A DNA stretch of 64,000 nucleotides, from IMG/VR virus record IMGVR_UViG_2690316121_000006, one strand, 5' to 3'. Below the pieces are notes generated by a model that did not search any database, was not told the DNA's origin, and was given only the letters and a program-made list of their open reading frames with translations. Made by a program: the position numbers and the translations under genes. Position 1 is the stretch's first letter, and the number at the start of each line of letters is the position of its first letter. This document shows, piece after piece, positions 19,976 to 20,814 of this stretch. Origin of the DNA: a virus. Its lineage: Duplodnaviria > Heunggongvirae > Uroviricota > Caudoviricetes.

Positions 19976-20785
19976 ATGCAAGAAGAGAAACAACACTACC
20001 TCTACGTTCTGGTGCCGGAGAACGGAGATACTTTTAAAATCGGCATTTCATGTGGTCCATTGGCACGGTTTAAAGGGCTACAAGTGAGTCCCGATTTTGC
20101 GCTTTCACGGGTCTATCGTGGTACGCGTTTGGCAATGGTTAATCTTGAGCGGGCTTTACACGCAACCTTTTTCCCCTGGAATGCGCCGTGGGAGAAAAGC
20201 GCCGGTGGCGGGCATACTGAATGGTTTACACGAGAGTGTCTTGATAAGGTTTTGGCTCATATCGAATATCTAAATGATATGTGGGGAGGGATTCTCGAGC
20301 GAATTAAGTCGAATGATTTACTTCAGCGTCCAGTAGATGCTGCTCGCTCTTTCGAAAAAGAACTGGATGTTACTTCTATCGTGACTTTCAAAGATGACGC
20401 AGGAATGAGGGATGTGGCTTATGTCTCCATATCTGGCTATGAACCTGACGCGATCCGCGCTCAATGTGAATTGCTGAAAGCGATGTTTACGCTTCGGACT
20501 AAATATCCCTGGGAGACAGGGCGGGTGTGCTTCCCTATGGAAGAGTTAACCGCCATCATTGATTCCCAGCTTTACCACGATAATCCAGAGAAGTTTTTTA
20601 GCCTTTTAGCTGGTAATGGGCTTAACTGTGTGTCCGGACTGGGGCGAAGTAGAATCCAACATGCCTCGCTCTTCGGTCCCTTCTTTTACGATCGAAACGG
20701 GTGCTTTGAGGCTGAACTTCCGGCGCTAACGCGTGCTATAGATACTATCGATTTCGAACGATTATTCGCAGCTCTTAACAAATAA
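19976..20785 (+). CDS. T5orf172 / GIY-YIG-like domain protein inserted between incA and parA
   Basis: 269 aa; N-terminal YLYVLVPENGDTFKIGIS...RFKGLQ...LERALH...HTEWF matches T5orf172 pattern; own terminator downstream. Confidence 0.5.
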   Translation: MQEEKQHYLYVLVPENGDTFKIGISCGPLARFKGLQVSPDFALSRVYRGTRLAMVNLERALHATFFPWNAPWEKSAGGGHTEWFTRECLDKVLAHIEYLNDMWGGILERIKSNDLLQRPVDAARSFEKELDVTSIVTFKDDAGMRDVAYVSISGYEPDAIRAQCELLKAMFTLRTKYPWETGRVCFPMEELTAIIDSQLYHDNPEKFFSLLAGNGLNCVSGLGRSRIQHASLFGPFFYDRNGCFEAELPALTRAIDTIDFERLFAALNK

Positions 20786-20792
20786 CACTGAT

Positions 20793-20814
20793 GCCCCTGA
20801 ACGGGGCTTTTTTG
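20793..20814 (+). terminator. intrinsic terminator after the T5orf172-like gene
   Basis: GCCCCTGAACGGGGC hairpin followed by TTTTTTG. Confidence 0.55.

What the first reader, a model, noticed from the sequence alone, without database searches (positions are those of the whole stretch)
19976..20814. T5orf172/GIY-YIG-like gene inserted inside the rep-par module
A 269-aa ORF with its own intrinsic terminator sits between the incA iterons and the parA promoter. Its N-terminus (YLYVLVPENGDTFKIGIS, RFKGLQ, HTEWF) fits the T5orf172 nuclease-like domain; the C-terminal 170 aa match nothing I recognise. As I recall P1, incA is followed directly by parA, so this is a cargo insertion at a site where copy-number control and partition elements are tightly linked.
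Basis: partly seen in the sequence, partly recalled or inferred. Interest (0 to 1): 0.6.

Follow-up and report, generated by a model that had tools for sequence, protein, structure and literature searches.

The report
Nuclease gene riding a plasmid-prophage replicon
A small nuclease-like gene sits between the replication and partition genes of this P1-like phage-plasmid; it is not loose cargo but a dispensable, fast-evolving passenger that always travels with the replication module, and it probably cuts DNA of rival elements.

Summary
A 269-aa ORF (19976-20785, +) with a terminator (20793-20812) lies between six incA-like iterons and the P1 par promoter. Residues 8-85 match Pfam T5orf172 above threshold, and canonical P1 has no gene there.

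"Cargo insertion" is only partly right. The gene lies inside a 2.26-kb block (18593-20851) that replaces the whole P1 IncY replicon. The block holds different iterons and a RepA only 42% identical to P1's: the known p0111 replicon.

- Linkage: 401 of 404 plasmids carrying this replicon also carry the gene.
- Ancient slot: full-length homologues (27-44% identity) occupy the same repA-incA-X-parA position in three other P1-like lineages, one with a P1-type RepA.
- Dispensable: absent from P1; at least five independent null alleles; pN/pS 0.31 against 0.00-0.05 for repA, parA and parB.
- Catalytic motif residues are invariant.

Best reading: a replicon-linked, sequence-directed endonuclease, homing-endonuclease-like or Odn-like, acting in competition between P1-like elements. 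The gene is already annotated and its function is untested.

The parts
18593..20851 (+). Replicon block (p0111 type) that replaces 1500 bp of P1 (incC iterons, repA, incA, spacer). The flanks are 96.4% (left) and 99.2% (right) identical to P1.
   Evidence: blastn of the window against NC_005856. The same block is found in 404 PLSDB plasmids.
18618..18717 (+). Five origin iterons (consensus GTTGACTATACGCGA, 21-22 bp spacing), equivalent to incC.
18799..19683 (+). repA, 294 aa, Rep_3-type initiator. 42% identical to P1 RepA; contains one iteron copy at 19402-19416.
19685..19941 (.). incA-like iteron array: two direct copies (19685, 19709) and four inverted copies (19803, 19865, 19897, 19927).
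19976..20785 (+). The gene in question: 269 aa plus stop codon. It has a weak Shine-Dalgarno sequence (GUGGU), and no consensus sigma-70 promoter was found upstream.
19976..20323 (+). N-terminal T5orf172 / GIY-YIG-like domain (aa 1-116). Y10, K21, G23, R31, E58, H62, E82, W83 and F84 are invariant in 10 distant relatives.
20324..20356 (+). Low-confidence linker (aa 117-127).
   Evidence: pLDDT below 50
20357..20782 (+). C-terminal domain (aa 128-269), predicted winged-helix fold. No sequence-level family match.
20793..20812 (+). Intrinsic-terminator-like hairpin followed by a T run.
   Evidence: A similar terminator with a similar downstream sequence follows the L007 homologue.
20871..20899 (+). 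Ppar, positionally identical to the annotated P1 par promoter. Homology to P1 resumes at 20852.
20954..23168 (+). parA (20954-22150) and parB (22167-23168), both 100% identical in protein sequence to P1.

Best explanation
The gene encodes a two-domain, sequence-directed endonuclease. An N-terminal T5orf172 (GIY-YIG-superfamily) catalytic domain is joined by a flexible linker to a C-terminal winged-helix DNA-targeting domain. The gene is a heritable passenger of the plasmid-prophage replication module and plays no part in replication or partition themselves.

Most likely it acts in conflicts between related P1-like elements that meet in one cell. It would cut the rival's DNA at or near that element's rep-par region or iterons. 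The break would either eliminate the rival or be repaired from the nuclease-carrying element, carrying that element's replicon block into the rival genome. This is how free-standing homing endonucleases (T4 Seg, ICP1 T5orf172 HEGs) cause marker exclusion, and it is close to how ICP1 Odn destroys a rival replication origin.

Shown here: the domain make-up, conservation of the catalytic motif, strict linkage to the replicon, position at the edge of the exchanged block, dispensability and fast evolution.

Inferred only: nuclease activity, the target, and the outcome (exclusion or homing).
For: 1. The nuclease domain is real and probably active.
- Pfam T5orf172 above threshold.
- Motif residues, including the Arg and Glu expected for catalysis (R31, E82), are invariant in relatives down to 16% overall identity.
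- A T5orf172 protein (Odn) has been shown to be a nuclease that depends on the equivalent Glu (PMC8263062).

2. The architecture is that of a homing endonuclease: catalytic domain, linker, then a separate winged-helix domain.

3. The gene lies at the edge of an exchanged block in two independent pairs of near-identical backbones.
- Window against P1: identity resumes 67 bp after the stop codon.
- L005 against L004: 98.6% identity resumes 63-84 bp after the stop codon, while RepA (41%) and the nuclease (29%) both differ.
- T5orf172 genes at the boundaries of exchanged blocks are a described pattern in phages (PMC10448857).

4. Presence/absence polymorphism in a common population: 412 of 5426 complete E. 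coli genomes carry the gene, and 361 match the gene-less IncY module.

5. It is dispensable but retained.
- P1 lacks it.
- Independent null alleles: S112*, Q228*, W68*, an IS200/IS605 insertion and an IS3 insertion.
- pN/pS is 0.31, against 0.02 for repA, 0.00 for parA and 0.05 for parB.
- Even so, full-length homologues persist in the same slot across replicon types whose RepA proteins are only about 42% identical.

6. The targeting domain evolves about twice as fast as the catalytic domain: 15-33% against 31-59% identity.

7. Expression signals are weak in all four variants, as expected for a potentially toxic nuclease.
Against: - There is no biochemical or genetic evidence for cleavage, for a target site, or for any effect on a co-resident element.
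- Strict linkage to the replicon may be passive. The variants are too divergent to recombine, so exchange can only happen in the conserved flanks.
- 87% of described T5orf172 homing endonucleases carry CapR/DUF723-type zinc-finger DNA-binding domains. This protein does not.
- P1-like plasmids sharing the same par system and immunity may seldom coexist long enough for such a contest.
- The pN/pS value and the roughly 20% null alleles also fit a gene that is simply decaying.
Confidence: 0.4

Rival explanations
1. Domesticated DNA-binding accessory of the replicon. The winged-helix domain binds the adjacent iterons, or pairs with RepA through a WH1-like surface, and tunes copy-number control (handcuffing) or par expression. 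The nuclease fold would be kept only as a scaffold, as with the PLE CapR repressor derived from T5orf172 homing endonucleases.
For: - The ATG lies 21-34 nt after the last incA iteron in all four variants.
- The protein type changes whenever the RepA/iteron type changes.
- Fold matches include iteron-initiator WH1 domains: 6h24, 1hkq, RepE, Pi and RctB, each with 83-109 aligned residues. The best BFVD match is a COG5527 replication initiator, E 3.3e-3.
- Domestication of T5orf172 proteins is documented.
Against: - Catalytic motif residues are invariant across very divergent relatives, which argues for retained catalysis.
- P1 and all common IncY elements replicate and partition without the gene.
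- Null alleles are frequent, and selection is about ten times weaker than on repA or parA.
- There is no sequence similarity to RepA.
Confidence: 0.2
2. Accessory defence or exclusion gene aimed at unrelated phages or plasmids: a stand-alone nuclease that protects the lysogen.
For: - Phage-plasmids carry accessory genes in variable regions (PMC9603915).
- The gene evolves fast, is dispensable and has a separate targeting domain.
- T5orf172 nucleases take part in phage-satellite conflict.
Against: - No PADLOC family matches.
- The gene is never found away from this replicon slot. The only full-length relatives in 1.8 billion representative proteins are in P1-like elements at the same position.
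- G+C content equals that of the flanks.
- A single gene with very weak expression signals would be unusual for a defence system.
Confidence: 0.2
3. A selfish gene now largely inactive in this lineage: a former homing endonuclease that went to fixation within the p0111 module, has no present function, and persists only through linkage to an essential replicon.
For: - About 20% of sampled copies are null, through at least five independent events.
- pN/pS is 0.31, far above its neighbours.
- Expression signals are weak.
Against: - pN/pS is still well below 1, and 37 of 47 sampled copies are intact.
- The ORF has stayed open, with its motif residues conserved, across four variants that diverged to 27-44% identity. 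Drift alone would not allow that.
Confidence: 0.15

Closest known systems
Free-standing T5orf172 homing endonuclease genes of ICP1-like, T5-like and other phages (Barth, Dunham & Seed 2023, PMC10448857); more broadly the GIY-YIG Seg endonucleases of T4 (the latter from my own knowledge)
   Same: - T5orf172/GIY-YIG catalytic domain plus a separate DNA-binding domain.
- A free-standing gene between essential genes.
- Present or absent between otherwise near-identical genomes.
- Located at the edge of a recombinationally exchanged block.
- Prone to decay.
   Different: - It sits in the plasmid replicon of a temperate phage-plasmid, not in a lytic phage.
- The catalytic domain is N-terminal.
- The DNA-binding part is a winged helix, not the CapR/DUF723/DUF4397 zinc fingers found in 87% of those genes.
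- Homing has not been shown.
ICP1 Odn (Gp88), the origin-directed nuclease (Barth et al. 2021, PMC8263062)
   Same: - A T5orf172 nuclease joined to a domain resembling the DNA-binding domain of a replication initiator.
- Associated with modular, swappable replicons (initiator plus iterons).
- A role in conflict between mobile elements is plausible.
   Different: - Odn's binding domain is 42% identical to its target's RepA_N domain. Here no sequence similarity to any RepA is detectable, and the fold similarity to Rep WH1 is weak.
- The domain order is reversed.
- Odn is encoded by the attacker, far from any replicon. This gene is encoded inside a replicon.
"gp57" of phage JL22, also annotated "GIY-YIG nuclease family protein" or "T5orf172 domain-containing protein" in RefSeq and GenBank records of SJ46, RCS47, pO111_3 and others
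   Same: It is the same gene (96-100% identical). The JL22 paper describes it as an unknown gene that, together with repA' (p0111), replaces repA (IncY) (PMC9603915).
   Different: Nothing differs in sequence. Those records give no function, no domain analysis of the C-terminal part, and no comparison across replicon types.
SLX1 / UvrC-type GIY-YIG nucleases
   Different: No sequence-level match (best PDB sequence hit E 0.23). Different partners and different biology.

Membership tests
Pfam T5orf172 (PF10544), GIY-YIG superfamily | Profile match above the curated gathering score | tested here: met
   27.5 bits against a cut-off of 20, E 4.7e-6, residues 8-85 matching profile positions 2-87 of 101. 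PHROG 681 'endonuclease', E 5.4e-9.
Pfam T5orf172 (PF10544), GIY-YIG superfamily | GIY-YIG (URI) fold | tested here: met
Pfam T5orf172 (PF10544), GIY-YIG superfamily | Conserved motif residues: Tyr of the first strand, the K/Y-I-G strand, catalytic Arg and metal-binding Glu | tested here: met
   Y10, K21, G23, R31 and E82 (within TEWF) are invariant in 10 relatives down to 16% identity. The assignment to catalytic roles is by motif position, not by superposition.
Pfam T5orf172 (PF10544), GIY-YIG superfamily | Endonuclease activity | not testable with these tools
   Needs purified protein and an E82A control.
Free-standing homing endonuclease gene (Seg / ICP1 T5orf172 HEG type) | Nuclease domain plus a separate DNA-binding domain joined by a linker | tested here: met
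   Low-confidence linker at aa 117-127 and an independent winged-helix domain at aa 128-269.
Free-standing homing endonuclease gene (Seg / ICP1 T5orf172 HEG type) | Present or absent at one locus between otherwise near-identical genomes, at the edge of an exchanged block | tested here: met
   Window against P1 and L005 against L004. Caveat: the polymorphic unit is the whole replicon block, not the gene alone.
Free-standing homing endonuclease gene (Seg / ICP1 T5orf172 HEG type) | CapR/DUF723/DUF4397 zinc-finger DNA-binding domain, present in 87% of described T5orf172 HEGs | tested here: not met
   No Pfam hit in any of the four C-terminal domains. The predicted fold is a winged helix.
Free-standing homing endonuclease gene (Seg / ICP1 T5orf172 HEG type) | Cleaves the allele that lacks the gene and is copied into it | not testable with these tools
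   Requires co-infection or co-residence crosses.
Odn-like origin-directed nuclease | DNA-binding domain homologous in sequence to a replication initiator's origin-binding domain | tested here: not met
   blastp of four C-domains against five RepA proteins: best E 0.77. hhalign probability 0.2%.
Odn-like origin-directed nuclease | Fold of the binding domain like an initiator's iteron-binding winged helix | tested here: inconclusive
Odn-like origin-directed nuclease | Iteron-dependent cleavage of an origin | not testable with these tools
   -
Core P1 plasmid-maintenance functions (rep / inc / par) | Required and universally present in P1-like plasmid prophages | tested here: not met
   Absent from P1, from P7-par IncY plasmids and from all IncY records seen. 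Null alleles occur in about 20% of p0111 copies.
Known anti-phage defence systems (PADLOC-DB 2.0) | Match to a defence-protein model | tested here: not met
   No family at E up to 1.

The most novel reading that the evidence does not exclude
The protein is a replicon-encoded, replicon-type-specific nuclease. Its winged-helix domain descends from an iteron-initiator WH1 domain, and it recognises the iterons or the rep-par junction of rival P1-like replicons. This would be a plasmid-borne counterpart of ICP1 Odn.

Such a nuclease would enforce exclusion between phage-plasmids, or homing of whole replication modules. It would help explain why the IncY and p0111 replicons coexist at similar frequency on one conserved P1 backbone.
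Probability: 0.2. Interest if true: 0.75.

Novelty: new variant of a known kind. Interest (0 to 1): 0.45.

Why it matters
P1-like phage-plasmids are common in E. coli and Salmonella. In this search, about 7.6% of complete E. coli genomes carried this gene. These elements also spread ESBL and other resistance genes.

They come with two main replicons, IncY and p0111, on one conserved backbone, and what drives or maintains that replicon swap is unknown. A nuclease that always travels with one replicon type sits exactly at the edge of the swapped block. It also has diverged relatives in the same slot of other replicon types. It is therefore a concrete, testable candidate for a driver of replicon replacement or of exclusion between related elements.

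If confirmed, this would extend the idea that nuclease genes mark the boundaries of genetic exchange from lytic phages to plasmid replicons. If not, the gene remains an ordinary, decaying selfish passenger that is already annotated.

Tried and rejected
- **Simple insertion into the P1 module:** rejected. The whole replicon differs from P1.
- **Recent foreign cargo:** rejected. G+C content equals that of the flanks. The gene is strictly linked to the replicon, and homologues occupy the same slot in other P1-like lineages.
- **Known defence protein:** no PADLOC or NCBIfam match.
- **Recent Odn-like chimera with RepA:** no sequence similarity between the C-domain and any RepA.
- **Remnant of the gene in P1's incA-Ppar spacer:** none found by tblastn or short-word blastn.
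- **Sequence-level identification of the C-domain:** nothing from Pfam at E up to 10 or from PDB profile searches.
- **Wider genomic context of distant N-domain relatives:** P0154 and P0155 lie in other mobile-element regions (one is near ParM and TraI) but not next to a Rep gene, so there is no general replicon link.
- **Further variants:** the scan of genome contigs added only one more copy of the same type, and a ten-sequence alignment was too divergent to scan with.
- **Structured RNA in the region:** no Rfam family.
- **A promoter for the gene:** no consensus sigma-70 site upstream in any variant, so the source of transcription is unresolved.
- **Foldseek against afdb50:** the library was not available.
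- **Literature on this gene:** no paper links T5orf172 with P1-like elements. One paper calls it an unknown gene.

Full report
**1. What is in the sequence**

The window is a P1-like phage-plasmid. Around the finding it encodes dmt, hrdC/rdgC, upfC, upfB, ppfA, upfA, repA, parA, parB, gp23 and gp22, in P1 order.

The ORF at 19976-20785 (+) encodes 269 aa. Eight nucleotides after its stop codon lies a hairpin, GCCCC-TGAAC-GGGGC, followed by TTTTTT (20793-20812).

The iteron GTTGACTATACGCGA occurs 12 times in the 64-kb window with up to 3 mismatches. All copies lie between 18618 and 19941; chance expectation is 1.1, and none of 100 shuffles reaches 12.
- Five copies at 21-22 bp spacing precede repA.
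- One copy lies inside repA.
- Two direct and four inverted copies form an incA-like array between repA and the ORF. The last one ends 34 nt before the ATG.

Downstream, the promoter-like site at 20871-20899 coincides with the annotated P1 Ppar, and parA starts at 20954.

**2. Domain content**

Residues 8-85 match Pfam T5orf172 (27.5 bits, cut-off 20, E 4.7e-6). MUG113 and a URI-fold toxin model score below threshold. PHROGs places the whole protein in a family of unknown function (phrog_2876) and the N-terminus in an 'endonuclease' family. NCBIfam and PADLOC return nothing.

An AlphaFold2 model built from five sequences has mean pLDDT 73. It shows an alpha/beta N-terminal domain, a low-confidence linker (aa 117-127) and a second domain. 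Modelled alone, the second domain reaches pTM 0.73.

- The C-domain matches include WH1 domains of iteron-binding initiators: MSBI1.176 Rep 6h24, pPS10 RepA 1hkq, RepE 2z9o, Pi 2nra and RctB 5ubf.
- These initiator matches align over 83-109 residues. Several are among the longest alignments, though non-Rep hits such as 9sfa (98-112) are as long.
- Generic winged-helix proteins such as TcpK, a CRP-like factor, and ORC/Cdc6/Cdt1 score equally well.

Against predicted viral structures, the best match is a COG5527 plasmid replication initiator (E 3.3e-3, TM 0.37).

At the sequence level the C-domain matches neither Pfam nor any PDB chain. It also matches none of five RepA proteins: best blastp E 0.77, hhalign probability 0.2%.

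I conclude that the C-domain is a winged helix and is probably DNA-binding. Descent from a Rep WH1 domain is possible but not established.

**3. It is not an insertion into the P1 module**

Against canonical P1 (NC_005856), the window aligns at 96.4% up to 18592 and at 99.2% from 20852 onward. ParA and ParB are 100% identical in protein sequence.

In between, 2259 bp of the window replace 1500 bp of P1. The left junction falls inside oriR, after the DnaA box and the GATC cluster and just before the first iteron. The right junction falls 19 bp before the -35 element of Ppar.

The replaced P1 segment holds the incC iterons, repA, incA and a 170-bp spacer. The window's RepA is 42% identical to P1 RepA, and its iterons have a different sequence.

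This is the p0111 replicon known from P1-like phage-plasmids. [quoted passage not shown]

P1 has no ORF between incA and Ppar and no remnant of this gene. IncY plasmids with a P7-type par also lack it.

**4. Linkage and distribution**

- The gene is found at 95-100% identity in 401 PLSDB plasmids. The whole 2259-bp block is found in 404.
- Twelve phage records carry it, including SJ46, RCS47, JL22 and phi456.
- Of 5426 complete E. coli genomes, 412 carry it, almost always on plasmids. By comparison, 361 genomes match the P1 IncY block.
- RefSeq names it 'GIY-YIG nuclease family protein'.
- tblastn finds no copy outside this context in plasmids or phages, apart from two weak N-domain matches.

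**5. The slot is old**

A profile search of 1.84 billion representative proteins found 161 relatives. Only three distinct proteins align over the full length. Each one lies between repA with its iterons and parA in a more distant P1-like element, whose structural proteins are about 80% identical to the window's.

| Locus | Protein | Identity to window protein | RepA of that element |
|---|---|---|---|
| L004 | P0004 | 44% | 84% identical to the window's |
| L005 / L006 (Salmonella) | P0009 | 28% | 83% identical to P1 RepA; P1-type iterons |
| L007 | P0011 | 30% | a third type, 43-48% identical to the others; its own iterons |

In all four variants the ATG follows the last inverted iteron by 21-34 nt. 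A terminator with a similar downstream sequence follows the gene in L007.

L004 and L005 are 94-99% identical in DNA on both sides. They differ completely across one block that again runs from the first iteron to 63-84 bp past the stop codon of this gene.

So in two independent pairs of near-identical backbones, the exchanged unit is iterons, repA, iterons and this gene. The association predates the divergence of RepA types to about 42% identity. The common E. coli IncY module is the variant that lacks the gene.

P0009- and P0011-type genes are absent from PLSDB.

**6. Selection**

I analysed 47 loci of the window's type: 44 from IMG/VR, one from the species-genome scan (L008), plus SJ46 and RCS47.

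- The gene is intact in 37.
- Eight carry a nonsense codon: S112* in five (including pO111_3), Q228* in the two SJ46 records, and W68* in one.
- One is disrupted by an IS200/IS605 element.
- One is cut by a contig end.
- A PLSDB plasmid carries an IS3 insertion, and two records show frameshift-like breaks.
- repA is disrupted in only one locus. parA is clearly disrupted in only one (the same locus, L035); three others differ only in its last two bases, and one locus ends before par.

Mean pairwise pN/pS is 0.31 for this gene, against 0.02 for repA, 0.00 for parA and 0.05 for parB. Distinct variant codons are 30 synonymous to 35 non-synonymous, against 48:4 for repA and 52:1 for parA.

Between variants, the N-domain keeps 31-59% identity and the C-domain 15-33%.

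Even so, Y10, K21, G23, R31, E58, H62, G79, E82, W83 and F84 are invariant in ten relatives down to 16% identity. The positions of Y10, R31 and E82 correspond to the GIY-YIG Tyr, Arg and metal-binding Glu. In Odn, mutating the equivalent Glu abolishes cleavage (PMC8263062).

The pattern is a dispensable gene under weak or intermittent constraint that is nevertheless kept over long periods with its active site intact.

**7. Interpretation**

The protein has the layout of a free-standing GIY-YIG-type homing endonuclease: catalytic domain, linker and separate DNA-binding domain. It sits at the boundary of a recombinationally exchanged block, which is the pattern reported for T5orf172 genes in ICP1-like, T5-like and other phages (PMC10448857).

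Its position inside a modular initiator-plus-iteron replicon, together with a winged-helix domain that may resemble initiator WH1 domains, recalls ICP1 Odn. Odn is a T5orf172 nuclease that borrows a RepA origin-binding domain to cut a rival's iterons (PMC8263062).

My preferred model (confidence 0.4) is a sequence-directed nuclease used in contests between related P1-like elements. The outcome would be exclusion of the rival or copying of the carrier's replicon block into it.

The rivals are:
- a domesticated iteron- or RepA-binding accessory of copy control (0.2);
- a defence or exclusion gene aimed at unrelated invaders (0.2);
- a fixed selfish gene now decaying (0.15).

None can be settled without experiments. 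An important caveat applies to the linkage evidence. The variants share no DNA homology, so recombination can only occur in the conserved flanks, and co-transfer with repA does not by itself prove a functional tie.

**8. Unresolved**

- No consensus sigma-70 promoter precedes the gene in any variant, and the Shine-Dalgarno sequences are weak. Read-through from PrepA across the incA array, possibly gated by RepA occupancy, is an untested possibility.
- Distant N-domain relatives of similar length (about 270-320 aa) occur in other mobile elements, but not next to Rep genes.

**9. Verdict**

The gene is already annotated and is mentioned in the literature as an unknown gene, so its existence is not new.

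What this analysis adds:
- It is an ancient, replicon-linked, dispensable and fast-evolving nuclease gene.
- It sits at the edge of the swappable P1 replicon block.
- It carries a winged-helix targeting domain rather than a zinc-finger one.

I rate it a new variant of a known kind (T5orf172 homing-endonuclease-like or Odn-like nucleases), of moderate interest.

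Noticed in passing
window 19402-19416: One iteron copy with a single mismatch lies inside the repA coding sequence. The same is seen in L004 at 7610-7630. Its role is unknown.
   Followed up: no
L015 (pO111_3), L014, L019, L021, L023: codon 112. L001/L045 (SJ46): codon 228. L047: codon 68.: Three different nonsense alleles of the gene. The S112* allele is shared by five loci, and it explains the split 'hypothetical protein | GIY-YIG nuclease' annotations and the 168-aa protein cluster P0003 (229 members).
   Followed up: yes
L050 5295-7057: An IS200/IS605 element (TnpB 389 aa, TnpA 141 aa) replaces codons ~99-174 of the gene. Plasmid NZ_CP138414 carries an IS3 insertion in the same block.
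   Followed up: partly
L057 (NZ_LT985234) 3501-4829; P1 coordinate 61487: Many IncY P1-like plasmids lose homology to P1 exactly at the last incA iteron and continue with a P7-type par operon. The incA/par junction is therefore a recurrent recombination point even where the nuclease gene is absent.
   Followed up: partly
L004 against L005 (whole loci): Two P1-like elements from different samples are 94-99% identical in DNA on both sides, yet carry replicons of different incompatibility type (RepA 41% identical). This is a second natural example of the IncY/p0111-type swap, in a lineage about 20% diverged from P1.
   Followed up: yes
window 16000-18592: The left flank (upfC to upfA) is only 96.4% identical to P1, whereas the right flank (parA to gene 23) is 99.2% identical. 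The asymmetry around the swapped block was not analysed further.
   Followed up: no
window 12738-15002 (-): A 754-aa ORF combining cytosine-C5 and Dam-like (MethyltransfD12) methyltransferase parts. It corresponds to P1 dmt and was seen only in the ORF list and in the annotation of relatives.
   Followed up: no
L055/L056 6001-6963 (Acetobacter contigs): A distant N-domain relative (320 aa) lies in a conjugative-plasmid-like region between a ParM/StbA partition gene and transfer genes (TraI, SLT). This hints that similar two-domain T5orf172 proteins occur in other plasmid maintenance regions.
   Followed up: partly
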